Source of the DNA: Methanobacteriota archaeon
GTDB taxonomy: Archaea; Thermoplasmatota; Poseidoniia; Poseidoniales; Thalassarchaeaceae
Direction of reading: 5' to 3'
DNA: 64,000 nt
NCBI GenBank assembly: GCA_002722595.1
Contig: PBMO01000035.1
Span: 49-64,048 of the forward strand
The notes under the pieces are model-generated. The model was not told the origin of the DNA, did not search any database, and saw nothing but the letters and a program-made list of their open reading frames with translations. Of this stretch, positions 18,501 through 58,377 are shown piece by piece (positions within the stretch are counted from its first letter, which is position 1; the number at the start of each line of letters is the position of its first letter). Position numbers and translations under genes: made by a program.

Positions 18501-21445
18501 TCAATAATGCCTATTCTAGCAACACAATCACTCTTGATTTCAACATTCGGTATGAAGATTTGCCGATTGCACCAAATCCAAGTAGTTACCAAGTTTTATT
18601 GCAAAAGAGAAACCAGTCTAATTTACAATTCGAAGAGTGGTTGTTTGTTGATTCTACTGCTGCCACAATCGATGGTGATTATTCTTGGCAGCCTGGATTG
18701 CCTGTAACTGAGGCAGGTAACGAACAATATCGCCTACTCATGGAAAATTACACTGACGGAGATACAATATGCCCGCCAGCAGAATACAATCCAGATAGTG
18801 ATTGTGCGATACGTTTCTCAATTACATTGGATCCTTTTGCTCCACATTTGATGAACATTTCAGTTTACAGTCAGCAGGGCGACTGGAGAGATCTCGACGA
18901 TGACACTTGGGTCCGTGCTAGTAACAATCAGGTGTTCAGAATAGCAGCTCAAGATTTGCCGCTTGCTCCAGAATTTCTGACATTCAATTATTGGGTTGAA
19001 GCAGAAGATGATTGCGGTTTAGATGGTCTGTGTCCTGGTTCCCCTTCATACACTGCTCCCGATGAGGGTGAATTAGATCGTATCCCGCAACTCAATGAAT
19101 ACGAAAGTATTGCACTAGTTAGGGAAACTGCAGCCGATACATCATACTATACAATTGACCATCCATGTGGTTGTATCAGTGATTATGCAAACAGTGGTAT
19201 TGATCCGCCTCAGATGGTCAGCGTATTCGTATCGGGTAGTGATATTGGAGGCAATCCGATTGACGGCGGCTCATTTGGTGTGAATCAAGACTTAGTGACT
19301 TACATTGCAATGGAATCACGAGTTCCTTCAATCGAAGCCTTCCGAATTTCAGATTCTTCTGGAGCCATGCTTAACGAAAATAATCGTTCCGTATATGCTG
19401 GAAACGTTTACCATTTACTTGTTGATGGCAAGGATGACAATGGATGGAGGGACGTAGAGACAATTCGCGTAACTATGAATCCATCAATATCCTCGCCTAG
19501 TTCCAATTTCTATGATCCTGATGGTTCTATTGTAATTCATTATTCCCCGCAAAATGACACTGCTTGGACTGATAGTAATTGGTTGGAAATTATTGATGAC
19601 TACGAGAATGTTGGATTGAAACCAACAATGCTGACTAGGAACGGCGAGACACTATTCTCTCCATTTGAGCAGCGGTTTACATTAGATATTCCAATTCGTA
19701 TGGCATGGTCTATTCCACTGGCATATGTAGGTGGTGTCATCACTCCTGACATTGCTATTAAGGACAAAGATCCGAACAACAACGAAGTATTCATCAGCGC
19801 ATCGAGAAACCCTCAGCGGTGGTCCTATGCAAGTGGTATCGAACTGGACACAATGTCTTTCACAGTTGAGGACACATCTGGTTTCCCAACTGTAGGAGTC
19901 GGTTCACAAGACGGCGGTTTCGTCTATCAAGGTGACATCTTAGTTATCGATGGGCGATATGTTTTCAGTTCAGGAGTTAATGATTTGGTATTTGTCAAAC
20001 CAGAGTTGGAATTAACCTTGCGATTAACTCGTACACCATTGTACCCAGGAGGATTGCCAACCAGTGGATACTCGCCTGCAATAACCACGGTTGAGGAATA
20101 CATTTTCGAGAATGGTTCTTTCAACATTGTAACTCCAGCAGCATACGCAACAAATGAGTATACGTATACTATGGAATTGTTGGGACTTCCCCAAGGGGCT
20201 GTTGATAATACACCCGCATCGGATCGTACTTTCATAGTAAAAGTAGATGCTTCACCACCATCTCTAGTCTTTGGTTCTTGGGAACTTTCCAATTCAATTA
20301 CTGGAGACACCCTCGAGGGTAGCATATCCTCTTCTGAGATGAATTGTTTAGATGCTGAAGTGTTCATCAATGAAAAGCAGGGTATGGATACTGAATCTGT
20401 TAATTTGAATTGGATGTTCTTTGAGGTGAATCCTTCAATGAATAATTATGAATCCAATTGGACAGAATATCTCACTGCTTTTGAGGGATCGGATTGGACT
20501 GGATGGGAAAGTGCACCGATGTACATTCCACCTGGTTCTCAAGGTGATATTCGGGCCACATCAACATGTGTCAATTTGTGGAACAATACTCAACCAATAC
20601 CTTCTGAAATGGAGAATATTATTGTCAAGTTCTGGTTGACTGGTTATGATTCCTCGGGTCAACCCATTAGTGGTGCAGGTGAATTTGGCGATTCAATTTA
20701 CAGCGGAGAAGGGACATATAATCTGGATTATGAGTCCGCAAAGTTCGACATCACTCGTGTTGATTTGTCAGTAGATAAACCGATGGCAGAGAGTGATTTC
20801 GACCTCCTCATTGATTTTGTCAATAACGGAAATAAAGAAGGCGTACTTGAAATACAAATTGTCACCTGGATCGGTGATCAACCTAATTCACCAGTGACTT
20901 ACACGTACCCGGAGGAACCCGTACAACCTGGCGAAGATACACGCTGGAGAATTTCAATGGATCAATTCCCGAACCCTGCGAACAATGTCCGTTATGTCGT
21001 TTTGGACATGGATGGCGAGGAAATTGCCAGTGTCGATCCGTTCAACGTAGCCAAATATTCTGAAGCAGAACAAGGAGGAGACATGGTTCTGATTATAGGA
21101 ATCGCAGCAGTTGTTATTCTATTGGTTATTGCTGTCGTCGTAGTTTTGTTGGTATTGAATAAAGGTGTGGAGGATGAGGAGATTGAATATATTGAGGAAG
21201 AAGATTTCCTCCCAGCAGGTCAGGCTGTAACTCCAATGAGGAGTCAGGGTCCTCCTGCGACTCGTCCAGGTGAACGTAGAGGCCCACCGGGGGCAAAGCG
21301 CGGTCCTCCAGCTGCATCAAAGAGCCCAATGGATATTGCAAAGGAGAAGTTCCCGTTTTGGGATGAAGCAACAATCCAAAGTTACTTCGATCAAGGCTGG
21401 AACGTTGATCAACTCGAAGAATGGCTTGCAAGCCAAGACAATTGA
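15545..21445 (+). CDS. giant secreted cell-surface protein (1966 aa) with signal peptide, C-terminal TM anchor and cytoplasmic tail
   Basis: N-terminal signal peptide MATRTRMLSLSMIGLMLFSTTLVHA/AT. The body is long, Thr/Ser/Asn/Asp/Gly-rich and has many NxS/T sequons. A C-terminal TM helix (MVLIIGIAAVVILLVIAVVVVLLVL) is followed by an acidic then Pro/Arg/Gly-rich tail of about 100 aa. Confidence 0.85.
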   Translation: MATRTRMLSLSMIGLMLFSTTLVHAATISTFANGNNDVDVELRNQGTWGDDLTAGISLPTGETVDSAGLIIGTSYATHNNVQTIDSSIVPGGEIWNPIYNGAMTQYSATSDFTYEETYLKLTSMGYNADFEGTQEGWTAGADQGVPPQVTNWQLGSDENNQLPYGCEIGEWCWGTDFEGVDYTMDLNSGEYNLVLTSASFFVHPGKSDMSFRSFHSLVYRAVGTNQYYYDDCAYVAVQNSTNNADWNNARFSPFDVQATTGLSSGDGLYQLGSSTNQVPTSQCDYLGSNGPQTGDYVLGGNGTTASNSPQGWSEIKLDLSAHAGRYVKLNFIMEVNDLNGAAPFEMMNAGWYIDGVRVGDPLPAQGSVTMRSFAPQASGQQGFPDGYGLLHLDLEKSASADFGVDILDASNGNVVVDRNGNSMSNLQGSTIELWDIDASTYPLIDFKFTYGSGAARLASPVLNAFHLGTMIGTSFNSTNGFFFEGGMYDGSKWYSDMTGGSQVFITPARIDTSFPGALPVERYDLSMPIVAVKPMVTDNCGGPDILFGMSMNEEDSMVSMNNNQWIDVEPTYSFAVGANYTSFCEVTEFYAELKFAHHSRGITLDVAGDGDIEWGVTDEAFGRFGRQDMFRSGVVNGINEGDTHRTIAVDVNQHGEGAPFLLPRDASVSYAHIGYENNNLDTFDLSIISGSEEVSIGEIQEGVNAPPTPFSPLVSIQDDLQTLLDNPLVPTAWIDEYGNSWCLFRLSVDSATATGGSTITFRDLEIIYTWETALGPSHNIARELNQGVALGMQAGPELQSVVVPMTIVGGSGGAVNLNSLSISTTPGYDSTLDANGITGMYPNGDVIEIITTHDVSSSTGESLGGASLLFETSNGNMELRWDQMNGSFWEEYDDDDKINFRSMQSISSTLAGSTTVQLNWRFTVNADWDDTPSVRIYAATLSASGVNGLPAGILIQPPNGGNAVENDAGITDFHLYNQGGVEQIDLNNAYSSNTITLDFNIRYEDLPIAPNPSSYQVLLQKRNQSNLQFEEWLFVDSTAATIDGDYSWQPGLPVTEAGNEQYRLLMENYTDGDTICPPAEYNPDSDCAIRFSITLDPFAPHLMNISVYSQQGDWRDLDDDTWVRASNNQVFRIAAQDLPLAPEFLTFNYWVEAEDDCGLDGLCPGSPSYTAPDEGELDRIPQLNEYESIALVRETAADTSYYTIDHPCGCISDYANSGIDPPQMVSVFVSGSDIGGNPIDGGSFGVNQDLVTYIAMESRVPSIEAFRISDSSGAMLNENNRSVYAGNVYHLLVDGKDDNGWRDVETIRVTMNPSISSPSSNFYDPDGSIVIHYSPQNDTAWTDSNWLEIIDDYENVGLKPTMLTRNGETLFSPFEQRFTLDIPIRMAWSIPLAYVGGVITPDIAIKDKDPNNNEVFISASRNPQRWSYASGIELDTMSFTVEDTSGFPTVGVGSQDGGFVYQGDILVIDGRYVFSSGVNDLVFVKPELELTLRLTRTPLYPGGLPTSGYSPAITTVEEYIFENGSFNIVTPAAYATNEYTYTMELLGLPQGAVDNTPASDRTFIVKVDASPPSLVFGSWELSNSITGDTLEGSISSSEMNCLDAEVFINEKQGMDTESVNLNWMFFEVNPSMNNYESNWTEYLTAFEGSDWTGWESAPMYIPPGSQGDIRATSTCVNLWNNTQPIPSEMENIIVKFWLTGYDSSGQPISGAGEFGDSIYSGEGTYNLDYESAKFDITRVDLSVDKPMAESDFDLLIDFVNNGNKEGVLEIQIVTWIGDQPNSPVTYTYPEEPVQPGEDTRWRISMDQFPNPANNVRYVVLDMDGEEIASVDPFNVAKYSEAEQGGDMVLIIGIAAVVILLVIAVVVVLLVLNKGVEDEEIEYIEEEDFLPAGQAVTPMRSQGPPATRPGERRGPPGAKRGPPAASKSPMDIAKEKFPFWDEATIQSYFDQGWNVDQLEEWLASQDN

Positions 21446-21454
21446 GGACAAAGA

Positions 21455-22276
21455 ATGACTCTAGGATCAGTCCTTGGTTGGACTCCAATTGAATGGGATG
21501 ACCCTTTGGGCGGGACCATCAGATTGTGGCCGTATATTCCGCATGTTGTTCTGACCGATACTCTGCGTAGAACCGCTGGGAAGTGGGATGGAATTGCTTT
21601 TTTGTTACCAGACGATGAACCTGAGATTTGGGAAAGCCAAGTCGAGCAAGAGAGAAAGTCCCCGGGTATCAATCGCGATGCAATTTCGTCTAGTGGTGAC
21701 ACGTATTCAAGAATGATTCAAGGTATGACAACGATTACTTCAATTCAAACAAATCGTTTTCCTGACCCTGAGCCAAGAAGACTGTATCAATATGCCAATT
21801 CGGCTAGTGCTTCAAAACCTTCTTTTTTCATTGAACCCAATGATGAGGAATGGACAAAATGGGTTGAAGATTGTGCTGATGAAATGACTAGTTTACGTAA
21901 TTTAGCATCTTCAATATTTGGTGGCCGTGCATGGAAGAAAGCTCTGAGGGAATCAATGCTCGGAATCACACCACCTGAGATAGAAAGAGATGACGAAAAG
22001 GCTCATGCACTGGCTCTGGCAAGTTCCTTAGCGACAACATGGTGGAACCGTTCAGAATCGATGATTTCAGTTGAGTTACGCAGCCGGAGAGATTTGCGAT
22101 TCGCCGCTAGACTTAGGGGTGCTCTCAGAACACTTACAAGTCGACAAATTGATGACGAATCACCTCCTGTGCTATTTGTCCCAGTCATGCAGGCTTGGTT
22201 GCCCAGCATCCAAAACGCATTGATGGAATCGCCATTACCAGAAGAAATAGAGGTGGAATTAGATGACAGAAGCTAG
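21455..22276 (+). CDS. hypothetical protein
   Basis: A 273-aa ORF. Its ATG lies 9 nt after the giant gene stop and is preceded by GAGGA. I recognise no motif. Confidence 0.55.
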   Translation: MTLGSVLGWTPIEWDDPLGGTIRLWPYIPHVVLTDTLRRTAGKWDGIAFLLPDDEPEIWESQVEQERKSPGINRDAISSSGDTYSRMIQGMTTITSIQTNRFPDPEPRRLYQYANSASASKPSFFIEPNDEEWTKWVEDCADEMTSLRNLASSIFGGRAWKKALRESMLGITPPEIERDDEKAHALALASSLATTWWNRSESMISVELRSRRDLRFAARLRGALRTLTSRQIDDESPPVLFVPVMQAWLPSIQNALMESPLPEEIEVELDDRS

Positions 22277-22778
22277 AGTTGAAAACCAATTGTTCAGATT
22301 TATCCCTTCTACAAATTTAGAACAAAATAGAGTTGTTGAAGAACTAGGGGGGAAGAGGAACGGACGTTATGTCCTTCTTTCCTTGGTTGCTCCACGTTCA
22401 ACGATATTAGTAGATCAAGATGGTCGAATCATAGTACATGGTTGTAAAAAGCACGACATAGCCCACCTTGCAGCAAAAGAAGTCATGCTACGGCTAGGTG
22501 AAAGTGAAGCAGGGATGACATTTGAAATGGGTCCTGCAGTTGCATCTTTTGATTTACAATCCACAGTTTCAATTGAACGTGTGCCAGATCTTTTTCCTGA
22601 GGCAAGCGTTGATTCAGATTTTGACTGTCTTCGAATCAATGACAAGAAACATGAATTGAATATTCTTCTTTTCAGAAATGGTCGTGGTATTGCAACAAAT
22701 GCAAGGCACGAAAAGTTGGTTTCTATGGCTGCTAGAAGATGGAAACAGAGACTTTCTGATGAAAATCTTCTGAGTTGA
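22263..22778 (+). CDS. hypothetical protein, possibly a divergent two-repeat TBP-fold protein
   Basis: 171 aa. Two internal segments resemble the TBP repeat pattern: STILVDQDGRIIVHGCKKHDIAHLAAKEVMLRL and LNILLFRNGRGIATNARHEKLVSMAARRWKQRL. The second is preceded by VASFDLQSTVSIERVPDLFPEA. The canonical TBP signatures are not conserved. The ORF overlaps the upstream ORF by 14 nt. Confidence 0.45.
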   Translation: MTEARVENQLFRFIPSTNLEQNRVVEELGGKRNGRYVLLSLVAPRSTILVDQDGRIIVHGCKKHDIAHLAAKEVMLRLGESEAGMTFEMGPAVASFDLQSTVSIERVPDLFPEASVDSDFDCLRINDKKHELNILLFRNGRGIATNARHEKLVSMAARRWKQRLSDENLLS

Positions 22779-23752: not shown

Positions 23753-24544
23753 ATGTTGCAACTCGAGGGAAAGACCGCACTTGTATTTGGCGTAGCTTCT
23801 GAGGATTCAATTGCATGGGCAATTTGCAACCAACTTGCTGAAGCAGGGTGTCGATTGATATTGGGGTATCAGAAGAGATTCATGAGTCGAGTTTTCCAGT
23901 TGAAGGACAAGTTAGACGCAATTGATTCGTTTTATCCGATAGATGTTGCGAGTGAAGAAACAACAGCAGAATTCTTCCAAGAATGGCAAACTGAATCACC
24001 CGGTGCGAAAGCAGATATCGTCATTCATGCTATTGGGTTCGCTCCAAGAGAATGTTTTGATCGTCATATGCTATTTGTGGAGAATGACCCCATAAATACA
24101 GCAATGACGATTTCTGCACATTCACTTCAGAGAGTTATGCGTCATGCATTGCCCCATTTAGCCATCAATTCTTCAACAATCACACTTACCTATGCTGCGA
24201 GTACCCGATATGTGCCAAACTATGGCATCATGAGTATAGCAAAAGCGGCATTGGAGGCATGGGTTAGGGAATTGGCAATGCGTGTTGGAGAAGACGGGCA
24301 TAGAGTCAACGCCATTTCTTCCGGACCGATTCAAACTCTTGCAGCAAGTGGGATTCCCGGATTTGATGACATTCTCAATCACGTTGAGAGAAATTCCCCT
24401 TTACGAAGAAATGTCGATCAAAATGATGTTGCAGGTTGTGCAGTTTGGCTCTCTAGCGCTTTGAGTTCTGGAGTTACCGGCCAAGTCATCCATGTTGATG
24501 CCGGCTATTCTAGTACAATGGTGCCCGACAGCATTAGTGATTGA
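23753..24544 (+). CDS. fabI: enoyl-[acyl-carrier-protein] reductase, FabI type
   Basis: LEGKTALVFGVASEDSIAWAICNQLAEAG (FabI-type Rossmann), TYAASTRYVPNYGIMSIAKAALEA (Y-x6-Y...K catalytic pattern) and NAISSGPIQTLAASGI. Confidence 0.85.
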   Translation: MLQLEGKTALVFGVASEDSIAWAICNQLAEAGCRLILGYQKRFMSRVFQLKDKLDAIDSFYPIDVASEETTAEFFQEWQTESPGAKADIVIHAIGFAPRECFDRHMLFVENDPINTAMTISAHSLQRVMRHALPHLAINSSTITLTYAASTRYVPNYGIMSIAKAALEAWVRELAMRVGEDGHRVNAISSGPIQTLAASGIPGFDDILNHVERNSPLRRNVDQNDVAGCAVWLSSALSSGVTGQVIHVDAGYSSTMVPDSISD

Positions 24545-24554
24545 GGTGTGATGA

Positions 24555-27500
24555 ATGAAATTACTTGATGAGAATTCTCAAGATCCTTTTGAACCTATAG
24601 CAGTCATTGGAATCGGGGCATTATTTCCAGATGCTGATGATGTGGATGTCTTTTGGGAAAATATTCTCAAAACACATGTTTCGCTTAGAGAAGTTCCATC
24701 AAATCGTTGGGATGTATCGGACTTCTGGGTAAAAGGGGGGCCGAAAAATGTTGATGAAAATAAGACCTACTCAAAAATTGGTGGTTGGGTAGATGGCTTT
24801 GAATTTGATTGGAGGCGATGGAAGATACCACCAGGATCTCTGGGACAAATCGATTTGACTCAACAATGGGCGGTGGCGGTAAGTGCGGCAGCACTGGAAG
24901 ACGCTGGTTATATGGGTGAAAATAGCCGTGATTTACCAAACGAAAAGACTGGCGTAATTTTTGCGAATGCGTTAGGTGGGGAGAACAGGAATTTATCAAA
25001 TCATCGAATATGGGCTGACCAGTTCGCTCGCCATGCCATAGAGGTAGGAGGCATGCCTCCAAGTGGTGCTGAAGCCTTCAAACAGGCAATCACAGAGGGT
25101 TTACCCAAAGTAACTGAGGATACAATGCCAGGGGAGCTTGCCAATGTTGTATCAGGTAGGGTAGCCAACTTGTTAGATCTCCAGGGTCCAAATTATTCAA
25201 CTGATGCCGCCTGCGCATCAACCTTTGCTGCAATTTTAGACGCTTGTCGTTTACTACAAGCACGTCAAGTGGATATGATGGTCGCAGGTGCAAGCGACCG
25301 TACCATGGATCCAGCAACATTTGCTAAATTCAGTGCTATTGGAGCACTTTCTGCCACCCACTCTACACCTTTCGATTCGAATGCAAATGGATTTGTGATG
25401 GGTGAGGGGGCGGGGGCAGTTACTCTGAAACGATTATCCGATGCTATTCGGGACGGGGATCGCGTACAAGCTGTGATTCGTGGAATCGGTGCAAGTAGTG
25501 ATGGAAGAGGCAAGGGAATTACTGCACCGAGTACTAGAGGTCAGATTCAGGCCGTGACAAGAGCATATTCCCAAGCAGGTTACAACCCTTCATCAGTGCA
25601 ACTCATTGAGGCACACGGCACCTCCACAGTCGTAGGTGATGCCACTGAATTAACGAGTCTTTCAGAAGTATTCGGTGACGATATGCCGGGAAACAATGTC
25701 GCCGTTGGCTCAATAAAAAGTCAAATTGGACATCTGAAAGCAGCGGCAGGTATTGCTGGCTTGATAAAAGCCATTCGTGCTGTAGATACTGGCATAATTC
25801 CTCCTAGTGCTGGCTTTTCGAATCCAAATCAAAATATTGATTGGGAATCAAATCCATTCTTTGTTCCAACTGAATCAATTGAATGGAAACCTCTGGTAGA
25901 TTTACCTCGAAGGGCAGGAGTGTCATCATTTGGATTTGGAGGGACTAATTTCCATTGTACGATAGAATCATTCGAACCCAAATTGCATCAAAATATAGCA
26001 GATAATTTTGATTTGAGGAGAGAGGCATGGTTGAATCCTAACAGTTCTCCAACTAAATCTGTTGAAACATATTCGCATGATGAATTGAAGGAAATCGAAG
26101 GCGGGGTTTTGTTAGTAAATGCACCCAACCTCACAGATTTAGAATCTAAATTGTCTATTATCAAAGATGATTTATTCACAGGGTCCAATTTTGATGATGA
26201 CCCATATGGGAAGAGATTGTCGCAAGAGTTGCCTAGGGTGAGCCAGACTTACATTGCTGAAGGAATCCGTTGTGCAATCGTAGCGAGTAGTTGGGCTCAA
26301 CTTGAAACAAAATTTAATCTGTTGGAATCTTCAATAGGCGATAGAAGCAAGTGGGTTTTTCTATCCAAGAAAATGATTATGCTCACAGATGAAAAAATCC
26401 TCTCTAGTGATGCAAAAATTGCACAATTGTATCCTGGCCAAGGTAGCCAATATGTCGGTATGACAAATGATTTATCGAAGCGATATCGATGCATTGGTGA
26501 AACTTGGAGAGAAGCAGACAAGACGATGGTGAAAATCCTTGATGGAGAGACACTTTCTTCATTTGTACTGCGTGACAATCTTTCCGATGAAGAGTTAAAG
26601 GAAGCAGAATACAAATTGAAACAGACCGAATATACACAACCAGCGATGCTGACTGCAGATTTGGCCATTTATCGCTTATTATCACAGCATGGCATAGATC
26701 CAGATATGGTTGCTGGGCACTCATTGGGCGAATATGCAGCACTAATGGTTTCAGGAATTTTGCGTTTTGAAGATGCACTAAAGGCTGCAGCGGCAAGAGG
26801 GACTGAAATGGGTAGTGTAGACGTACCCGATAATGGAATTATGGCTTCTGTAACAGCACCTTTTGAACAGATTGAGAAAGTACTTGCAGCCGAAGATGGT
26901 TACGTGATTGCTGCAAACAAAAACAGTCCAAAGATGACTGTAATTGCTGGGGAAACTGAACCAATGAAGCGAGTGATGTCAGCATTTGAGGAAGCAGGAG
27001 CACCATGTGTGCAACTCCAAACTAGTCATGCATTCCATTCACGAATCGTCGCCCCTGCCAATGAACCCCTACGGCGATTCCTCAATGAGCTTCAAATTGA
27101 TCTACCATCCATACCAATCACCGCCAATTTAGATGGCCAATGGTACCCTAATGAGATTGGAGATAATGCCACTGCGAAAGAAGCTATTCTCTCCAAATTA
27201 GCACCACAGATGGCCTCATCAGTTGAATGGATTAAACAGATTGAAACAATGTATGAAGATGGCGCACGTCTATTCGTTGAGGTTGGACCTAAACGAGCCC
27301 TTGCGCTTTTCGCTGAACAGATTCTACATGACCGTCCACACATAGTCACCAACACAAATCATCCAAAAGTTGGTGGAATTACTTCCTTCCACGCAGCTCT
27401 TGCCGTACACGCTTTAGCAGGTAGGATTCCCAATATCCCCGATTTGGAGAGCGATATTTTGACAGATTCCTTCCGTTTGGGCGTCAAGAAACCATCTTCC

Positions 27501-30500
27501 AAAGAAGTAGTTATCCAGTCAAGAAAATCAGTCGAATCTAATCCGGTTGGCCAATTGGATGCAGAAGAATTGGAATCTGCAATTTGGGACGCGAAAGAGA
27601 GACTTGTGGCCGATATAGTATCCCAAGTCACAGGATTTCCATTAAGAATGATTCATGGTTCGATGGATTTACGAACAATTGGACTAGATGAGAACCGGAT
27701 TTCTGAAGTCAAATCTAGAATTCAATCGGCTTATCGTGTTAAGGGAGATTGTGAAGCCAAGTCTCTGCCTGACTTAGTTGAATGGTTAGATGAAAATCCA
27801 CCAGTTCAGATTATTCCAAGTAGTGAATCTGAAACAACCATATCTCATAGAAGAATCCTAGGAAAAACAGAAAATATTGTATTCAGTGGTGTTAGTCTTG
27901 GTTTGCCTGGATTGAATGAGGTATTCTCAGAGGATGCACTTGATCGAATAATCAGTGGCGAGAACTTCATCACAGAACTTCCAGAGGAAGTGAAACAAAA
28001 GCTATTGGACCGGAATCTCGTTAGAATTGTCAAGAAGGCTGATGGTTCTGCTGACTTTGTTCCATGTGATGACTCCAGCCTTATACCACAACTGGCAGGG
28101 CGCAAGGGTCATTTTGATTTGGTAAAACAGTATGGTGTGGATTCTAAGATAGTTCAAGCAATGGATATTTCAACATCTCTAGCACTTGCATCTGGATTGG
28201 AAGCATTACGTGATGCTGGGCTTCCTTTGGTTGCAATTGAGCAAATCAATAAGGCTGGGAAAAGACATATTCAACGATGGAATCTACCGCTTTCTGAACA
28301 GAGTCGTACAGGTGTAATTTTCGCCTCTTGTTTCCCTGGTTTGGAACAGACAATGACGCATGCGCAGAATAACGGTTCTGACAATGAAGGTAATTTCGAT
28401 AGACGTTTCTTGTTACAAATCCTTACAATGGGCCATTCACAATTTGCACAATGGATTGGTGCCAAGGGGCCTAATGCAGCGATTAACAATGCCTGCGCAT
28501 CTACCCCCTCCGCAATTGCAGTTGCAGAAGATTGGATAACAAATAATCGATGTGATAGAGTAATTGTAGTCAGCGCCGACGATGTCACTAGTGACGAATT
28601 AGTCACTTGGATTGGAGCAGGATTTGCGGCAGCAGGTGCCCATGCAATGGGTAACACAGTCGAGGAAGTTAGTTTGCCATTTGATGCACGGAGAAATGGT
28701 ATGTTATTGGGGATGGGTGCTGCCGCTTTTGTTATTGAAAGAGAGAATTTGAGCAAAGAAAGAGGAGTCACTCCCTATGCGCAATTACTCGGCACACACC
28801 TCGCAAACTCTGCTTACCATCCAACACGTTTGGATGTCGAACATGTCTCAAGTTCTCTAGACTCTTTCATCTCAAGAATGGAAACAAAATGGGACCTTAA
28901 CCGCCATCAAATTGCTGCCAAAACCACATTCATGTCACACGAACCAGGGACCCCCCCTCGCGGTGGTTCTGCTGCGGCGGAAATTGAAGCCCTCAGACAC
29001 ACTTTCGGTGCTAGCGCTTCATCAATACTGATTACCAACACCAAGGGATTTACAGGCCACCCCATGGGAGTTGGTATTGAAGATGCAGTTTCCATTTACG
29101 GGTTAAGTAAGGGAGAGTTCCCCCCTATTGCAAATTTCAAGCAACCAGACCCCGAATTGGGGGATTTACGCCTTTCAAAAGGTGGCCCTGTTGATGTTGA
29201 ATACGTCATTCGGCATGCAGCAGGTTTTGGTTCCCAGATGGCGTTTACGATGACTCGTAAGATAGCCAACTCCCTTGATCGGATTGACCGCTCTGCAGTA
29301 GCTTTGTGGGTTGCAAACAAATGTGGTGGGGACGTTGATTTGAGAATTCTTGAAAGAAAATTAGTGACATACGTTGATGCTGATGAAATGCTAATTGGTG
29401 GTGTAGAAGGTGAGAAGTGGTTTGAGCGCAGAGTGGTTGAAGAGAAATCAGAAATCAAAGAGGACCTAAGTTCGACCATCGAACCGATCGAAGAAATAAT
29501 CGAAGAAGATACTGCTATGAATGAGATTAAGGCATCAGGAGATGTTGAGAATAAAGTAATCGAGGTCGTAGTAAAGCACACAGGCTATCCTGCTGATTTT
29601 GTTGAGCTTGATCAAGATTTGGAAGGTGAATTGGGTATTGACACCGTAAAGCAGGCAGAAATAATGGCGGAATTAAGGGAGTTCTATGGTCTCCCAGTCG
29701 ATGAATCGTTCGTTCTTAGTGAACATCCAACTCTAAATCATATGATTGCATACCTGAGTATTGGAGAAAGAAATTCTGAGAATACAGCAGTAGATGAGCC
29801 AAAATTACCAGTTCTACAACCTGTATCAGTCCAAACCGCGCCGGTAAAAGAGGAAGCAAATATTGTGCCCACAGGCGTTCCTTCGCCGGATGTCAGAGAC
29901 AAGGTCGTCGAAGTGGTAGTTAATCACACAGGTTACCCTGAAGACTTCATAGAATTAGATCAAGACTTGGAAGGCGAGTTGGGAATTGATACCGTAAAGC
30001 AGGCAGAAATTATGGCGGAACTGCGCGAGTTCTATGGTTTGCCAGTAGATGAGTCGTTTGTTTTGAGTGAACATCCTACCTTGAATCACATGATTGCTTA
30101 TCTCGATCAAGATCCACCCTCTACATCGCTTCAAGAGATACCAGTCACCGAATCTGATCAAAACCACAATACGACAGATCCCCAATCGATAGAAAAAAAT
30201 CCAGTCCTTGAATTGGTTCCAGAAACAGGTGGAGTTAGAAGGTGGCAAGTTGAAGCAGAAGAATGTGCACCAGAATCTGGGATTCCATTGGATATTGAAG
30301 GCAAGGTAATTGCTGTAACAGATGACCCTTGGGGGGTAGCAGATACACTTTGCCATATATTGGAAGCAGCAGGTATTGATGCAGTCCGCATCATGCTTGA
30401 CCCAAGCATAGTATCCAAGGTCAAGATTGAGAAGGATGGCCCAGTTGATATCATCCGAGTAAATCCTGGAAACAGGGATCAATTAGCAGAGGTCAGCACT

Positions 30501-32858
30501 CATCTTTCACAAGTCGGAGAAGTTGCAGCCTTACTGCATCTTGCCCCTCTAAGACTTGCTGGAGTTGGATGGGAATCTGAGACGCAAAATGCCCACCTAA
30601 ATACTACGACTCATGGTTTATTTGGACTCCTGAAATCATTGAATAATCACTTCTCTTCTATTAATGATGGGACGGTTATGTCAGTCAGCGCAATGGATGG
30701 AAAACATGGGAATTCAAGTAGTCGCTTCAACTCAATTGCAGCCGGTGCTCATGGAATTATCAAGTCATACTCAAAAGAGATGCCTCATCTAAGATGTCGA
30801 GCAGTAGATGTGGATCCTGAATTATTGACAGATCCAACATCTCTTGCCCACAAGATTTGGGCTGAAGCCTTCGGCCTCACAAGCCCGATAGAAGTGGGAA
30901 TATCTCGTGATGGCACGCGTTGGTCGCTACAAATGTACGAGGAGGATTTGGGCCAAAGCATTCAACCATTGGATGAAGATGACGTCTGGATAGTTTCTGG
31001 AGGAGGTTCCGGTGTCACGTCTAGGTGTATAGTTGGTGTTGCAAACGCAAGTCTCAATGCGGGCGCCACATTTGTTTTATTGGGTAGAACAAAACTGGAT
31101 CCAAGTCTAGAGGATTGGTTGGATGATTCAGAATCAGAATTGCATGAAAGAAAGATGAACCTCAGGGAACAAATGATTTCTGCCAGTGATTCGGGTAAAG
31201 TCACAATGGTTGAATGGGAAAATGAGTGGAATCGGTTGATGCGTAATATGAGTATTCATCGCACACTCAAAGATATCCAACTATCTGGCAATCGGGCTCT
31301 GTATGATGCATGTGATGTGACAAATCAAAAATCGGTTTCAAAGGTAATTAGTGCTGTTAGTGATGAGTTTGGAACAATTACAGGAATAATCCATGGCGCA
31401 GGTATGGAAGATTCGAAACTAGTTGGGGATAAATCTTGGGAGACTTTTTCGAAAGTAGTATCAGTCAAGATTGATGGTTGGAGATCAATAATTGATGCAA
31501 TAGGTGAAGATGTAAGCAAACTAAGAGTAGTCTGTGCGTTTACATCAATCGCAGGTCGATTTGGGAATGGTGGACAAGTTGATTATGCAGCAGCAAATAA
31601 CATTCTAGATGCTGAAATGTGTAGAATTGCCCAGCATGAAGATGCACCCCGAGCAGTTGCAATAGCATGGTCTGGTTGGAGAGATGTTGGCATGGCAACA
31701 CGTGGTTCAATAGAATCTGTATTTGAACAGGCTGGAATCGAAATGATCCCTGTTGATGTGGGCGTCGAAATTTTCGTTGATGAACTACTTGCTGGTGGAA
31801 AGAGGCGGGTTGTTGCAGCTGGTTCGTTGGGTAGCCTAGATACAGAAAATAGTCTCAGAGGCCCCCCTCAGAAATTTCCTAATGACACATCAGGTGCTCT
31901 TTCAGAGCCGGAAAGGTTCCCCTTCATAGATCGCATCATCCAACATGATCCATATGAGAATCTAGTTGCTGAATGCACACTTTCTGAACTTCGACACCCA
32001 TTCTTAACAGACCATGCGATTGATGGAACCCCTTACCACCCGGGTGTAATGGCAATGGAAATGTTTGCTCAAGCATCATTGCTTCTGTATCCGGTTTGCA
32101 CATTGGAAGGGTTCTCTGATGTTGAATTCGGTCTACCGATTAAATTGACGAAAGATGAACAGAAAGTTAGGGTAATTGCAAAATTTGATGGCCAAGATCA
32201 CAATTCATTATTCATCAAGTGCCATCTTGAAAGTGATCTAACGAATTCAAAAGGAGAGATTTTTGGCGAGCCGATAATTCATCATAGTTCTCAGATTCGT
32301 TTACTAAAAGAGGGTGCAGAACGGGATGCATCATTGCCATTCAATACTATACCCAGTATGGGCCAGGCATCATTCCAACCAAATTTCATCTACAAACGAT
32401 TCTTCCATGGGCCAAGATTCCAAGTTCATGGTGGAATTATCAAGGGCATATCTGACGGTGATAGGCTAGGTATTGATGGAATAGCATTGCTTCGCAATCA
32501 ATTGCCGGAAACGGTACTTTTCTCTGAAGAACCTGCATTACTAGAGTCCATGCCCATGCTTGTTGAAGCATGTTTCCAAAATGCTGGATTAGTTGCAATG
32601 GAAGTTGATGGATTATCCAGTTTACCAATTGGTATCGAAGAATGTGAGATTCTGAAAACTCCTCCTGCAAGGGATGATTTGCGAGTCCGCAGTTATCGTA
32701 TAGGTGTTGAAGAGGGAGGGATTACAGTACACGATGCCATTGTGTATGATAAAAATCAGAAACCAGTGGTATCGCTAAAGGGTCTTCGCCTCAAAGGGAT
32801 GGCACCACTTGAAGAAGACGATTTATTCAGTCTAAATAGAAAAGGATTTAGCAATTAA
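24555..32858 (+). CDS. type I FAS/PKS-like megasynthase (PUFA/secondary-lipid synthase-like): KS-AT-ACP*(degenerate)-KS-ACP-ACP-KR-DH
   Basis: KS1: DAACAS (Cys codon 25212-25214), EAHGTST, GHLKAAAG. AT: GHSLGE (Ser codon 26721-26723), SHAFHS. Degenerate carrier-like segment: IGLDENR. KS2: NNACAS (Cys codon 28494-28496), SHEPGTP, GFTGHPMG. Two tandem carrier domains with LGIDTVKQAE. KR: SGGGSGVT Rossmann and DYAAAN. PKS-type DH: LTDHAIDGTPYHP (His codon 32013-32015). I see no ER or TE domain. GAGGTG lies 6-11 nt upstream of the ATG. Confidence 0.9.
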   Translation: MKLLDENSQDPFEPIAVIGIGALFPDADDVDVFWENILKTHVSLREVPSNRWDVSDFWVKGGPKNVDENKTYSKIGGWVDGFEFDWRRWKIPPGSLGQIDLTQQWAVAVSAAALEDAGYMGENSRDLPNEKTGVIFANALGGENRNLSNHRIWADQFARHAIEVGGMPPSGAEAFKQAITEGLPKVTEDTMPGELANVVSGRVANLLDLQGPNYSTDAACASTFAAILDACRLLQARQVDMMVAGASDRTMDPATFAKFSAIGALSATHSTPFDSNANGFVMGEGAGAVTLKRLSDAIRDGDRVQAVIRGIGASSDGRGKGITAPSTRGQIQAVTRAYSQAGYNPSSVQLIEAHGTSTVVGDATELTSLSEVFGDDMPGNNVAVGSIKSQIGHLKAAAGIAGLIKAIRAVDTGIIPPSAGFSNPNQNIDWESNPFFVPTESIEWKPLVDLPRRAGVSSFGFGGTNFHCTIESFEPKLHQNIADNFDLRREAWLNPNSSPTKSVETYSHDELKEIEGGVLLVNAPNLTDLESKLSIIKDDLFTGSNFDDDPYGKRLSQELPRVSQTYIAEGIRCAIVASSWAQLETKFNLLESSIGDRSKWVFLSKKMIMLTDEKILSSDAKIAQLYPGQGSQYVGMTNDLSKRYRCIGETWREADKTMVKILDGETLSSFVLRDNLSDEELKEAEYKLKQTEYTQPAMLTADLAIYRLLSQHGIDPDMVAGHSLGEYAALMVSGILRFEDALKAAAARGTEMGSVDVPDNGIMASVTAPFEQIEKVLAAEDGYVIAANKNSPKMTVIAGETEPMKRVMSAFEEAGAPCVQLQTSHAFHSRIVAPANEPLRRFLNELQIDLPSIPITANLDGQWYPNEIGDNATAKEAILSKLAPQMASSVEWIKQIETMYEDGARLFVEVGPKRALALFAEQILHDRPHIVTNTNHPKVGGITSFHAALAVHALAGRIPNIPDLESDILTDSFRLGVKKPSSKEVVIQSRKSVESNPVGQLDAEELESAIWDAKERLVADIVSQVTGFPLRMIHGSMDLRTIGLDENRISEVKSRIQSAYRVKGDCEAKSLPDLVEWLDENPPVQIIPSSESETTISHRRILGKTENIVFSGVSLGLPGLNEVFSEDALDRIISGENFITELPEEVKQKLLDRNLVRIVKKADGSADFVPCDDSSLIPQLAGRKGHFDLVKQYGVDSKIVQAMDISTSLALASGLEALRDAGLPLVAIEQINKAGKRHIQRWNLPLSEQSRTGVIFASCFPGLEQTMTHAQNNGSDNEGNFDRRFLLQILTMGHSQFAQWIGAKGPNAAINNACASTPSAIAVAEDWITNNRCDRVIVVSADDVTSDELVTWIGAGFAAAGAHAMGNTVEEVSLPFDARRNGMLLGMGAAAFVIERENLSKERGVTPYAQLLGTHLANSAYHPTRLDVEHVSSSLDSFISRMETKWDLNRHQIAAKTTFMSHEPGTPPRGGSAAAEIEALRHTFGASASSILITNTKGFTGHPMGVGIEDAVSIYGLSKGEFPPIANFKQPDPELGDLRLSKGGPVDVEYVIRHAAGFGSQMAFTMTRKIANSLDRIDRSAVALWVANKCGGDVDLRILERKLVTYVDADEMLIGGVEGEKWFERRVVEEKSEIKEDLSSTIEPIEEIIEEDTAMNEIKASGDVENKVIEVVVKHTGYPADFVELDQDLEGELGIDTVKQAEIMAELREFYGLPVDESFVLSEHPTLNHMIAYLSIGERNSENTAVDEPKLPVLQPVSVQTAPVKEEANIVPTGVPSPDVRDKVVEVVVNHTGYPEDFIELDQDLEGELGIDTVKQAEIMAELREFYGLPVDESFVLSEHPTLNHMIAYLDQDPPSTSLQEIPVTESDQNHNTTDPQSIEKNPVLELVPETGGVRRWQVEAEECAPESGIPLDIEGKVIAVTDDPWGVADTLCHILEAAGIDAVRIMLDPSIVSKVKIEKDGPVDIIRVNPGNRDQLAEVSTHLSQVGEVAALLHLAPLRLAGVGWESETQNAHLNTTTHGLFGLLKSLNNHFSSINDGTVMSVSAMDGKHGNSSSRFNSIAAGAHGIIKSYSKEMPHLRCRAVDVDPELLTDPTSLAHKIWAEAFGLTSPIEVGISRDGTRWSLQMYEEDLGQSIQPLDEDDVWIVSGGGSGVTSRCIVGVANASLNAGATFVLLGRTKLDPSLEDWLDDSESELHERKMNLREQMISASDSGKVTMVEWENEWNRLMRNMSIHRTLKDIQLSGNRALYDACDVTNQKSVSKVISAVSDEFGTITGIIHGAGMEDSKLVGDKSWETFSKVVSVKIDGWRSIIDAIGEDVSKLRVVCAFTSIAGRFGNGGQVDYAAANNILDAEMCRIAQHEDAPRAVAIAWSGWRDVGMATRGSIESVFEQAGIEMIPVDVGVEIFVDELLAGGKRRVVAAGSLGSLDTENSLRGPPQKFPNDTSGALSEPERFPFIDRIIQHDPYENLVAECTLSELRHPFLTDHAIDGTPYHPGVMAMEMFAQASLLLYPVCTLEGFSDVEFGLPIKLTKDEQKVRVIAKFDGQDHNSLFIKCHLESDLTNSKGEIFGEPIIHHSSQIRLLKEGAERDASLPFNTIPSMGQASFQPNFIYKRFFHGPRFQVHGGIIKGISDGDRLGIDGIALLRNQLPETVLFSEEPALLESMPMLVEACFQNAGLVAMEVDGLSSLPIGIEECEILKTPPARDDLRVRSYRIGVEEGGITVHDAIVYDKNQKPVVSLKGLRLKGMAPLEEDDLFSLNRKGFSN
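29556..30104 (+). repeat. tandem duplication (348-nt period) encoding two carrier-protein domains inside the megasynthase
   Basis: Copy 1 is about 29556-29756 and copy 2 about 29904-30104. Over a 60-codon aligned core (HTGYP...MIAYL) I count 2 amino-acid differences and 26 codons that differ only synonymously. Confidence 0.9.
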
Positions 32859-32887: not shown

Positions 32888-33628
32888 ATGTTGATATGGG
32901 AACCTTCAGGTGTTGTTTCCCCTATCTCCATTCCTTGTAATGACAACAATATACACTCGGGATGGATTTCTGTCGGCGACTTCGAGCACAATTCAGAGAT
33001 TCCAGACATCTCAGGAGTACCTCTTGTTGATCCATCTGAGGCAAGCACCTTTGCAACACCAAAACGTGCATATGAACATGCAGCAGCACGGCACGTCTTG
33101 GCAACTCTATTGCATGATATTGGTTTCGAGGCAGATAAAATAGCAGTGTCACGTAATCAATATCGGAAACCAAATCTTGTTTGGAAGGACATAACAAGTA
33201 GTTCGCTTAATCAGAAACTCCCGGAGATTTCATTGTGTCATTCGGGAGGCATCGCAATTGCAACAGTGTCTGTCGATGCTGGGCCTATCGGCCTAGATGC
33301 TGAACCCCTTGAATCAATGCGAAGTCGCAATATCCTGTCTATGATGTCATCTGCTGATGAAATGCAACATCTGAATGATTTATGGGATGTTGATGAAGCG
33401 GTTGCAATTCAAGAAACAAATCGGATTTGGGTAATCAAAGAGTCCGTCCAGAAAGCCTGCGGCTTTGGTATGCACCTCCCTCCACAATCATTTGCAGTCC
33501 ATGAACACGAAGACATCACAGTAAATCACAGTGGGCAAACATATCACATCCAGACAAATCATTGGGTGGAAACCTTGGATGATATCCCCTTCCAGTTGGG
33601 TTTTTCAAAAGTGCTAGGAATTTCCTAA
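32888..33628 (+). CDS. 4'-phosphopantetheinyl transferase, Sfp/PfaE type
   Basis: PIGLDAEP (GxDxE motif) and IWVIKESVQKACG (W/FxxKES motif). At 246 aa the size fits the two-domain Sfp type. GAGG lies 8 nt upstream of the ATG, which is 30 nt after the megasynthase stop. Confidence 0.8.
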   Translation: MLIWEPSGVVSPISIPCNDNNIHSGWISVGDFEHNSEIPDISGVPLVDPSEASTFATPKRAYEHAAARHVLATLLHDIGFEADKIAVSRNQYRKPNLVWKDITSSSLNQKLPEISLCHSGGIAIATVSVDAGPIGLDAEPLESMRSRNILSMMSSADEMQHLNDLWDVDEAVAIQETNRIWVIKESVQKACGFGMHLPPQSFAVHEHEDITVNHSGQTYHIQTNHWVETLDDIPFQLGFSKVLGIS

Positions 33629-50972: not shown

Positions 50973-51052
50973 GTGTTTGCGAGACCTATCCAGCGCTTGA
51001 GACCATCGGCGGTGGCCGTAGGCCACCGTGCGCATACGCGAGATGATTGGTT

Positions 51053-58291: not shown

Positions 58292-58377
58292 CTCATAACA
58301 CTCCTTTACCAATTTGGTCCCATAGGGACCATACTCGAACATGTAGGCGACCTGCGTCCTGCATTTGAATGCGCCGC

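What the first reader, a model, noticed from the sequence alone, without database searches (positions are those of the whole stretch)
29556..30104. Both tandem carrier domains carry Thr where the phosphopantetheine Ser is expected, and the duplication looks to be under purifying selection
Seen in the sequence: the two carrier repeats (period 348 nt) read ...DLEGELGIDTVKQAEIMAELREFYG..., and the residue after (G)ID is ACC (Thr) in both copies (29643-29645 and 29991-29993), where carrier proteins normally have the DS(L/I) serine. Over a 60-codon core I count 26 synonymous-only codon differences and 2 amino-acid changes. The copies are therefore old, not homogenised by recent conversion, and constrained at the protein level, Thr included. 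Inference: the Thr may be the attachment site, which would be unusual for Sfp-type PPTases. Alternatively the domains may act without a prosthetic group, or the true acceptor may be elsewhere. A dedicated PPTase gene follows the megasynthase.
Basis: partly seen in the sequence, partly recalled or inferred. Interest (0 to 1): 0.7.

Follow-up and report, generated by a model that had tools for sequence, protein, structure and literature searches.

The report
Threonine-type acyl carrier domains in archaea
Two tandem acyl-carrier domains of a marine archaeal fatty-acid/polyketide megasynthase carry threonine where the textbook cofactor-bearing serine sits; this threonine marks a large uncharacterised enzyme family that always travels with its own cofactor-attaching enzyme, so it is probably the cofactor attachment site.

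Summary
ORF 24555-32858 encodes KS-AT-(degenerate ACP)-KS-ACP-ACP-KR-DH. Both ACPs match PF00550 and have ACC (Thr) at 29643-45 and 29991-93. That position is the Ser column in alignments to solved ACPs and the first residue of helix II in a confident model.

The Thr is not a quirk of this gene. G[IV]D-T-VKQ marks a large uncharacterised family with the KS-AT-KS-ACPn-KR-DH architecture. It occurs across Poseidoniales (marine group II archaea, to which this window belongs), other Thermoplasmatota and many bacterial phyla. In an exhaustive search, 101 of the 150 nearest protein clusters are all-Thr.

An Sfp-type phosphopantetheinyl transferase (PPTase) with intact catalytic motifs is adjacent, as here (32888-33628), or fused. 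The only substitution in otherwise intact domains is Ser, including a Poseidoniales lineage with Ser in both ACPs; the single Ala is a divergent terminal repeat. A vestigial ACP-like domain in the same protein has lost the residue.

The best reading is that Thr carries the phosphopantetheine. This is unproven, and ten literature searches found no precedent. E. coli ACP S36T is reported to be unmodifiable.

The parts
24555..32858 (+). Megasynthase ORF (2767 aa): KS1-AT-psiACP-KS2-ACP-ACP-KR-DH, PfaA-like but below the family cut-off
   Evidence: ORF list and translation. Pfam domains. TIGR02813 PfaA scores 840.6 bits against a cut-off of 1010. By eye in the translation the catalytic motifs are present: KS1 C/H/H, AT GHSLG and HAFH, KS2 ACAS / HEPGT / GHPMG, KR YAAAN, DH HxxxGxxxxP.
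24591..25994 (+). KS1 (ketosynthase)
   Evidence: PF00109, PF02801 and PF16197 over aa 13-480.
26415..27347 (+). AT (malonyl-type acyltransferase)
   Evidence: PF00698 over aa 625-926; TIGR00128 FabD over aa 621-921.
27597..27749 (+). Degenerate ACP-like domain (psiACP) with Glu at the attachment column (GLDENRI)
   Evidence: Weak PP-binding match. Across Poseidoniales the column is D/E/G/N/S/T. In some bacterial relatives an intact Thr-type ACP lies between AT and KS2.
27852..29474 (+). KS2 (second ketosynthase, Cys-His-His present)
   Evidence: Second PF00109 stretch plus weak ACP_syn_III and Thiolase_N hits. Conserved in every Thr-type relative.
29541..29759 (+). ACP1, Thr-type carrier domain
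   Evidence: PF00550 at 39.7 bits. AF2 pLDDT 92.5. ACP fold.
29643..29645 (+). ACC = Thr1697, at the canonical phosphopantetheine-Ser position of ACP1
29889..30107 (+). ACP2, Thr-type carrier domain
   Evidence: PF00550 at 39.8 bits. 92% amino-acid identity to ACP1 over 71 residues.
29991..29993 (+). ACC = Thr1813, at the canonical phosphopantetheine-Ser position of ACP2
30522..31754 (+). KR (ketoreductase) region
   Evidence: PF08659 and PF00106 over aa 2234-2377.
31953..32795 (+). DH (polyketide-synthase-type dehydratase)
   Evidence: PF21089 and PF14765 over aa 2467-2747.
32888..33628 (+). Dedicated Sfp-type 4'-phosphopantetheinyl transferase, 30 nt downstream of the megasynthase
   Evidence: PF01648. 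Aligns to Sfp 1QR0 with the HSG, GxDxE and WxxKESxxK motifs kept. The family profile hits human AASDHPPT at 2e-12 and Sfp at 2e-10. Adjacent or fused in nearly all related loci.
23753..24544 (+). FabI-type enoyl reductase, 10 nt upstream; probable trans-acting ER of the synthase
   Evidence: PF13561 at 2.6e-67; FabI NCBIfam models. Conserved position in Poseidoniales loci.

Best explanation
The two domains are working acyl carrier domains in which a Thr hydroxyl replaces the usual Ser hydroxyl as the nucleophile that receives 4'-phosphopantetheine from CoA. The transfer is made by the co-transcribed Sfp-type PPTase (32888-33628). The holo-ACPs then serve an iterative, fatty-acid-synthase-like megasynthase (KS1, AT, KS2, KR, DH in cis) with FabI acting as enoyl reductase in trans.

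Shown here:
- Thr occupies the Ser position in sequence alignments and in the predicted structure.
- Thr is invariant in a large family that has this architecture.
- A catalytically intact-looking PPTase is always linked to it.
- Ser is the only substitution seen in otherwise intact domains.

Inferred, not shown:
- That the modification happens on Thr.
- That the linked PPTase performs it.
- The role of FabI and the identity of the product.
For: 1. Position. Thr aligns with the modified Ser of solved ACPs. It is residue 1 of helix II in a model with pLDDT 92.5, and that model has a canonical ACP fold. The preceding G-x-D of the GxDS motif is kept.

2. Family-wide invariance.
- Invariant columns of 32 diverse domains are G16, Y17, E29, L32, G33, D35, T36, V37, K38, Q39. 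No Ser is conserved.
- Among VKQ-type domains there are 608 Thr, 7 Ser and 1 Ala. The remaining 'exceptions' are sequencing-adapter chimeras.
- All four ACN codons are used in 254 of 254 intact domains from 79 species-level loci. Ser is one nucleotide away, so the amino acid itself is under selection.

3. Internal control. The vestigial ACP-like domain in the same proteins has drifted to D/E/G/N/S/T at this column.

4. Hydroxyl requirement.
- P0179, P0023 and P0030 carry DSVKQ in both ACPs. P0179 is about 50% identical to the window megasynthase, falls inside the Poseidoniales group in an NJ tree, and has its own PPTase downstream.
- P0250 has five Ser-type ACPs and a fused PPTase.
- P0089 has one Ser-type and one Thr-type ACP side by side.

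5. PPTase linkage.
- The PPTase is adjacent in every Poseidoniales locus that extends past the synthase.
- It is present in 33 of 40 other loci, and most of the remaining loci are truncated.
- It is fused to the synthase C-terminus in L047, L051, L058 and L068 and in many database proteins.
- Its invariant residues R60, R68, P95, G135, D137, E139, W181, E185, K189 and G194 include those aligned to the Sfp metal ligands (D107/E109) and catalytic base (E151); numbering of the Sfp residues is from my own knowledge.

6. Need for a carrier. All catalytic domains look intact. The ACPs are tandemly multiplied (2-10 copies) as in PUFA synthases. No other ACP or PPTase is encoded in the 64 kb window.

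7. From my own knowledge: archaea generally lack ACP and AcpS (Lombard et al. 2012; Dibrova et al. 2014). If that holds here, this PPTase has few other plausible clients.
Against: - No experiment and no published precedent for Thr-linked phosphopantetheine was found. The ten searches covered open-access text only.
- With a canonical enzyme the conservative swap fails. E. coli ACP(S36T) 'cannot be post-translationally modified by 4'-PP' (PMC3340395).
- I found no residue signature that separates Thr-associated from Ser-associated PPTases, though only two Ser-associated enzymes were available.
- The rest of the archaeal genome could not be searched for other carrier proteins.
- The loci were selected with a DTVKQ pattern, so they over-represent Thr. 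The unbiased figure is the exhaustive search.
Confidence: 0.7

Rival explanations
1. The Thr-type domains are carrier-like scaffolds that receive no prosthetic group. They would act as structural or docking modules, and the intermediates would travel on CoA or on a separate carrier encoded elsewhere.
For: E. coli ACP S36T is not modified. From my own knowledge, archaeal fatty-acid metabolism is thought to be ACP-independent. A clearly non-functional ACP-like domain does exist in the same protein.
Against: A PPTase is adjacent or fused in essentially all family members, and in the fused cases the in-cis ACPs are the obvious substrates. Strict Thr/Ser conservation contrasts with the drifting psiACP. 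Tandem multiplication of 2-10 copies is typical of throughput-limiting true carriers. No other ACP is found in the window.
Confidence: 0.12
2. Phosphopantetheine is attached, but to a different residue of the domain (for example T15 of TGYP, T65 of PTL, or a lineage-specific Ser), and the helix-II Thr has only a structural role.
For: T15 and T65 are conserved in at least 90% of domains.
Against: T36 is the invariant residue. It sits in the G-x-D-(S/T) context at the N-terminus of helix II, where PPTases act on every solved ACP. Ser replaces it in derived lineages. The Ser residues of the window domains (DESF, LSEH) are Asp or Ala in relatives.
Confidence: 0.04
3. Thr is the attachment site, but nothing is specialised. 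Sfp-type PPTases in general tolerate Thr in this sequence context, and Thr is a near-neutral variant fixed early in the family.
For: No Thr-specific PPTase signature was found, and the catalytic motifs are the ordinary W-x-x-K-E-[AS]-x-x-K type. Ser and Thr domains coexist in one protein, P0089.
Against: Thr is kept in 608 of 616 VKQ-type domains although Ser is one mutation away and all four Thr codons are in use. That argues for selection for Thr over Ser. The next residue covaries: T-V 585, S-I 193, T-I 5, S-V 12. This fits a co-adapted pocket, although the signal is largely one split between two families.
Confidence: 0.14

Closest known systems
PfaA-type PUFA synthase tandem ACPs (TIGR02813; LGIDSIKRVEI motif)
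   Same: Nearest curated family. Shares KS-AT...tandem ACPn-KR-DH on one polypeptide, a near-identical motif context (LGID-x-[IV]K), multiplied ACPs and a dedicated Sfp-type PPTase.
   Different: PfaA ACPs have Ser followed by Ile, whereas here Thr is followed by Val. The window protein scores below the PfaA cut-off (840 against 1010 bits). It has an extra KS inserted between AT and the ACPs. FabI, rather than PfaB/C/D partners, lies in the operon.
Enediyne PKSE and other type I PKSs with an integrated C-terminal PPTase (e.g. SACE_2343, SAV_7361, mentioned in PMC6042109)
   Same: Many Thr-type relatives are KS-AT-...-ACP-KR-DH-PPTase fusions that presumably self-activate in cis.
   Different: In the window the PPTase is a separate gene. 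From my own knowledge, PKSE has a single Ser-type ACP and no second KS. Whether SACE_2343 or SAV_7361 belong to the Thr-type family was not tested.
E. coli AcpP and its S36T mutant
   Same: Same fold and the same position of the hydroxyl residue.
   Different: AcpP uses Ser36, and S36T is reported as unmodifiable and non-functional (PMC3340395). Here Thr is the natural, conserved state.
Sfp / human AASDHPPT (group II PPTases)
   Same: The linked PPTase is about 246 aa and two-lobed by profile alignment. It keeps the residues aligned to Sfp's metal ligands and catalytic Glu/Lys.
   Different: Only about 20% identical. Its presumed substrate carries Thr. Activity was not tested.

Membership tests
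Acyl/peptidyl carrier protein domain (Pfam PF00550 PP-binding) | Sequence match above the curated cut-off over the whole domain | tested here: met
   39.7 and 39.8 bits against a cut-off of 20.8; profile positions 1/2-67 of 67.
Acyl/peptidyl carrier protein domain (Pfam PF00550 PP-binding) | Small helical-bundle ACP fold | tested here: met
   AF2 pLDDT 92.5 with main helices at residues 2-15, 36-50 and 66-74. TM-scores of 0.8-0.87 to solved ACPs.
Acyl/peptidyl carrier protein domain (Pfam PF00550 PP-binding) | Conserved Ser at the N-terminus of helix II (GxDS) as the phosphopantetheine acceptor | tested here: not met
   Thr in both domains and in 608 of 616 VKQ-type family domains; the G-x-D context is retained.
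Acyl/peptidyl carrier protein domain (Pfam PF00550 PP-binding) | Actual 4'-phosphopantetheinylation (holo form) | not testable with these tools
   Needs mass spectrometry of the expressed domain with and without the PPTase.
PfaA polyunsaturated fatty acid synthase (NCBIfam TIGR02813) | Score above the curated cut-off | tested here: not met
   840.6 bits against 1010.1. The acidobacterial relative scores 900.8.
PfaA polyunsaturated fatty acid synthase (NCBIfam TIGR02813) | Domain order KS-AT-ACPn-KR-DH with Ser-type tandem ACPs | tested here: not met
   An extra KS2 and a psiACP lie between AT and the ACPs, and the ACPs are Thr-type.
PfaA polyunsaturated fatty acid synthase (NCBIfam TIGR02813) | Partner genes pfaB/pfaC/pfaD in the cluster | tested here: not met
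   The scanned neighbours are FabI, a PPTase, an ABC exporter and archaeal housekeeping genes. No KS-CLF-DH2 protein or PfaD-type ER was seen among them, but not every ORF in the window was scanned.
Sfp-type (group II) 4'-phosphopantetheinyl transferase | About 230-250 aa, two ACPS-like lobes | tested here: met
   246 aa. PF01648 in the C-terminal lobe. The family profile aligns over positions 31-195 to AASDHPPT residues 39-215 and to Sfp residues 45-182.
Sfp-type (group II) 4'-phosphopantetheinyl transferase | Catalytic motifs: (S)HS, GxDxE metal ligands, WxxKE[AS]xxK with the catalytic Glu | tested here: met
   CHSGG, GLDAE and WVIKESVQK in the window. G135, D137, E139, W181, E185 and K189 are invariant in 30 cluster-linked PPTases.
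Sfp-type (group II) 4'-phosphopantetheinyl transferase | Transfers phosphopantetheine to a carrier-protein Ser | not testable with these tools
   The only candidate substrates in the operon carry Thr. Activity is unknown.

The most novel reading that the evidence does not exclude
A whole clade of megasynthases, widespread in marine group II archaea and in several bacterial phyla including soil lineages, uses O-phosphopantetheinyl-threonine as its native carrier linkage. The linkage is installed by co-evolved Sfp-type PPTases that are adjacent or fused. This would be the first natural exception to the 'conserved serine' rule of carrier proteins. It would also supply a ready-made orthogonal carrier/PPTase pair, and it would show ACP-dependent fatty-acid-type synthesis in abundant planktonic archaea.
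Probability: 0.6. Interest if true: 0.8.

Novelty: new variant of a known kind. Interest (0 to 1): 0.7.

Why it matters
Phosphopantetheine attachment to a conserved Ser is a textbook invariant of fatty acid, polyketide and non-ribosomal peptide synthesis. Some annotation rules for carrier domains are written around that Ser. From my own knowledge, the PROSITE phosphopantetheine pattern requires it.

A large natural family with Thr would revise that rule if the Thr is modified. It would also raise a mechanistic question: how does a PPTase accept a secondary alcohol when E. coli ACP(S36T) is not modified? It could yield orthogonal tagging pairs.

The Thr-to-Ser switches seen within the family give natural controls for such experiments.

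The host matters too. Poseidoniales are abundant surface-ocean archaea, and a conserved FabI-megasynthase-PPTase operon bears on the archaeal/bacterial 'lipid divide'.

Tried and rejected
- Tandem Repeats Finder found nothing, because the copies are too divergent in DNA.
- The first GTDB scan, with a single 1000-aa query, found no relatives. An alignment-based scan then worked.
- The cluster look-up for names returned no organism names.
- A second homologue search, with the Amycolatopsis ACP region and aimed at cultured or named members, returned only unnamed multi-ACP proteins. A plasmid-collection tblastn instead found Nonomuraea gerenzanensis.
- I looked for a PPTase residue signature specific to Thr-type clusters and found none. 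The His-to-Thr change in the Ser-lineage PPTase of L080 is not shared by the other Ser-associated PPTase, P0250.
- Ten literature searches found no report of Thr-linked phosphopantetheine, of this family, or of a Poseidoniales PKS/FAS. PMC12551638 concerns Thr at the position after the Ser, not at the attachment site.
- Sequencing error or pseudogene was considered and rejected. The exact PPTase, with the same neighbouring genes, is found on 20 contigs from marine metagenome assemblies (three were inspected), and the operon is syntenic in about 40 Poseidoniales species.
- Apparent non-hydroxyl exceptions (L, R, C) were rejected as adapter-derived chimeric protein ends.
Full report
**What is there**

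The finding lies inside a 2767-aa ORF (24555-32858, + strand). Pfam resolves it as KS, AT, a second KS, two PP-binding domains, KR and a polyketide-synthase-type DH. The nearest curated family is the PUFA synthase subunit PfaA, but the score is below its cut-off (840.6 against 1010.1 bits).

The catalytic motifs of every enzymatic domain are visible in the translation:
- KS1: Cys/His/His.
- AT: GHSLG and HAFH.
- KS2: ACAS / HEPGT / GHPMG.
- KR: YAAAN.
- DH: HxxxGxxxxP.

A FabI-type enoyl reductase ends 10 nt upstream (23753-24544). A 246-aa PPTase starts 30 nt downstream (32888-33628).

The surrounding genes are archaeal housekeeping genes: Cdc6/Orc1, a TBP-like protein, PCNA, Nop5 and fibrillarin. 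The closest relatives are MAGs of Poseidoniales/Thalassarchaeaceae, the marine group II archaea. The nearest species representative is only about 70% identical in DNA. The exact PPTase protein occurs on 20 contigs, and the three inspected come from separate marine metagenome assemblies including a Tara Oceans run.

- Both carrier domains match PF00550 over its whole length, at 39.7 and 39.8 bits against a cut-off of 20.8.
- They are 348 nt apart and both read DLEGELGIDTVKQAEIMAELREFYG, with ACC at 29643-45 and 29991-93.
- In pairwise HMMER alignments to solved carrier proteins, the Thr falls on the Ser of the lgiDS/lgaDS motif.
- An AlphaFold2 model of ACP1, built on 32 diverse family members, has mean pLDDT 92.5. 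Its helix II begins exactly at this Thr.
- The model superposes on AcpP-type ACPs with TM-scores of 0.8-0.87.
- Nei-Gojobori gives pS 0.79 (saturated) and pN 0.046.
- Among identical amino acids, 51% use the same codon, against 43% expected from the gene's own codon usage. Any gene conversion is therefore ancient.

**The Thr is a family trait**

An exhaustive HMMER search of 1.84 billion representative proteins with ACP1 gave 4324 hits at E <= 0.001 and 446 at E <= 1e-30. I re-extracted every ACP domain from the 150 best representatives and the 120 word-index hits.
- 616 of 875 domains have Thr in the motif LG[IV]DTVKQ.
- 239 have Ser. Almost all of those have the PUFA-type LGIDSIKRVEI motif or the LGIDSIKKAQL motif.
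- Among the 150 exhaustive-search representatives, 101 proteins are all-Thr, 46 are all-Ser and 1 is mixed; two more are Thr-type apart from one Ala or gapped domain.

The residue tracks the architecture. Thr-type ACPs sit in KS1-AT-KS2-ACPn-KR-DH proteins, often with a C-terminal PPTase domain. Ser-type ACPs sit in PfaA-like KS-AT-ACPn-KR proteins.

The 79 loci kept include:
- about 40 Poseidoniales species;
- other Thermoplasmatota;
- Acidobacteriota, Myxococcales, Actinomycetota, Gemmatimonadales, Spirochaetota, Elusimicrobia and others.

Cultured carriers include Amycolatopsis sp. NPDC021455 (L043) and Nonomuraea gerenzanensis.

No Pfam or NCBIfam model is specific for this family.

**Why Thr is probably the attachment site**

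1. *Conservation.* In 32 diverse domains the invariant columns are G16, Y17, E29, L32, G33, D35, T36, V37, K38 and Q39. No Ser is conserved. In 79 loci, all 254 intact ACP copies have Thr, and all four ACN codons are used, although Ser is a single substitution away. The loci were selected with a DTVKQ pattern, so one copy per locus is Thr by construction. The other copies are not.

2. *Internal control.* The vestigial ACP-like domain between AT and KS2 of the same proteins has D, E, G, N, S or T at this column. The window has Glu there. Without selection, the residue drifts.

3. *Only hydroxyl residues replace it.* In VKQ-type domains the counts are 608 Thr, 7 Ser and 1 Ala. The Ala is in a divergent terminal repeat. 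The L, R and C cases sit at adapter-derived chimeric ends.
   - P0179, P0023 and P0030 have DSVKQ in both ACPs. P0179 is about 50% identical to the window protein over 1900 residues. It falls inside the Poseidoniales group in an NJ tree of the KR-DH region, which has no bootstrap support values. It has its own PPTase immediately downstream.
   - P0250, a bacterial protein with a fused PPTase, has Ser in all five ACPs.
   - P0089 has one Ser-type and one Thr-type ACP in tandem.

4. *PPTase linkage.* A homologous Sfp-type PPTase follows the synthase in every Poseidoniales locus that extends far enough. It is found in 33 of 40 other loci, and most of the rest are truncated. It is fused to the synthase in L047, L051, L058 and L068 and in many database proteins. 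The enzyme aligns to Sfp and to human AASDHPPT across both lobes. R60, R68, P95, G135, D137, E139, W181, E185, K189 and G194 are invariant. These include the residues aligned to Sfp's metal ligands and catalytic Glu.

5. *No alternative client nearby.* No other ACP or PPTase is encoded in the window. From my own knowledge, archaea normally lack ACP and AcpS.

**What argues against, and what is unknown**

- Nothing here shows the modification.
- The literature tool gave no precedent in ten searches. It did confirm that E. coli ACP(S36T) cannot be phosphopantetheinylated (PMC3340395).
- Any Thr-using system therefore needs either a permissive sequence context or an adapted PPTase.
- I found no PPTase signature that distinguishes Thr-linked from the two available Ser-linked enzymes.
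- The residue after the acceptor covaries strongly: T-V 585, S-I 193, T-I 5, S-V 12. This is compatible with steric compensation in a shared pocket. It is largely one phylogenetic split, so it is weak evidence.
- The product of the synthase is unknown. There is no thioesterase domain.
- Bacterial clusters replace FabI with an acyl-CoA dehydrogenase, ETF and an Fe-S protein, and add a single-chain acetyl-CoA carboxylase. That suggests a self-contained fatty-acid-like pathway.

**History of the duplication**

In Poseidoniales, 70 of 80 ACP copies have their best protein match in another genome, often at the same position in the array (for example L004_3 with L015_3). Tandem copies therefore generally predate species splits. 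In the window the two copies are 92% identical in protein, against about 76% in L002 and similar genomes. This lineage probably re-duplicated or homogenised its copies later, but long enough ago for synonymous sites to saturate.

**Verdict**

This is not an odd gene. It is a member of a large, uncharacterised, Thr-type carrier family with its own PPTase.

- Probability that Thr carries the phosphopantetheine: about 0.7-0.8. This combines the best explanation with the rival in which Thr is the site but nothing is specialised.
- Novelty: a new variant of a known kind, namely a carrier protein with a non-canonical acceptor residue.
- Interest: 0.7.

The decisive test is a simple co-expression and mass-spectrometry experiment, and cultured bacterial hosts are available for it.

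Noticed in passing
window 27597-27749 (aa ~1015-1065 of the megasynthase): A degenerate ACP-like domain lies between AT and KS2, with Glu at the attachment column (GLDENRI). In other Poseidoniales the column is D/E/G/N/S/T. Some bacterial relatives have an intact Thr-type ACP between AT and KS2.
   Followed up: partly
window 15545-21445 (+): A 1966-aa ORF with no Pfam or NCBIfam hit. Its C-terminus is conserved directly upstream of the p273 / TBP-like / TatD / FabI / megasynthase block in many Poseidoniales loci.
   Followed up: no
window 22263-22778 (+): A 171-aa protein with only weak, partial similarity to TATA-box-binding protein. It holds a fixed position in the conserved synteny upstream of FabI.
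   Followed up: no
loci L041, L046, L052-L054, L057, L059, L062, L074, L077, L081 and others: Bacterial Thr-type clusters have a different accessory set: acyl-CoA dehydrogenase upstream (often preceded by an Fe-S/CCG protein and ETF-beta/alpha), and a eukaryote-like single-chain acetyl-CoA carboxylase (~1880 aa) plus a PPTase downstream. There is no FabI.
   Followed up: partly
loci L047, L051, L058, L068; proteins P0150, P0173, P0183, P0200, P0222 and others: The PPTase is fused to the C-terminus of the megasynthase (3700-3870 aa in the four loci) in Bradymonadia and non-Poseidoniales Thermoplasmatota; the listed database proteins also carry a C-terminal PPTase domain. The layout resembles enediyne PKSE and the 'PKS-integrated PPTases' SACE_2343 and SAV_7361 noted in PMC6042109, whose membership of this family was not tested.
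   Followed up: partly
locus L080 5703-6542: The PPTase of the Ser-revertant Poseidoniales lineage has Thr in place of the otherwise conserved His of the S-x-S-H-S motif (FSISTSGN). The other Ser-associated PPTase (P0250) keeps the His.
   Followed up: partly
window 2394-3422 (+): A fusion of a cytidylyltransferase-like (PPAT-type) domain with DUF359. From my own knowledge these are the last two steps of archaeal CoA synthesis, and CoA is the donor of phosphopantetheine.
   Followed up: no
window 5034-6308 (-) and 37812-38558 (-): Cdc6/Orc1 and PCNA genes are present, so the window may lie near a replication origin. The intergenic regions were not examined for origin repeats.
   Followed up: no
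window 57002-58405 (-): A 467-aa protein with a eukaryote-type RRM_1 RNA-recognition motif (E = 1e-20) and a treble-clef zinc finger, which seems unusual for an archaeon.
   Followed up: no
window 47640-51086 (-) and 51053-52873 (-): An IcmF-like fusion (B12-binding, MeaB GTPase and methylmalonyl-CoA-mutase domains; 1148 aa) lies next to an AMP-binding acyl-CoA synthetase. Both are acyl-CoA metabolism genes in the same window.
   Followed up: no
database proteins P0015, P0059, P0066, P0100: Several metagenome-derived proteins begin or end in peptides that look like translated sequencing adapters (MCIRDR, SLIHI, LLYTSDAA, SEERRVGK). These create false 'exceptions' at the attachment column.
   Followed up: yes
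window 29577-30104: The proportion of synonymous differences between the two repeats (0.79) is at or slightly above the saturation value. Whether tandem ACP repeats are selected for nucleotide divergence, to avoid recombination, was not tested. The median over 79 within-genome pairs is 0.74.
   Followed up: partly
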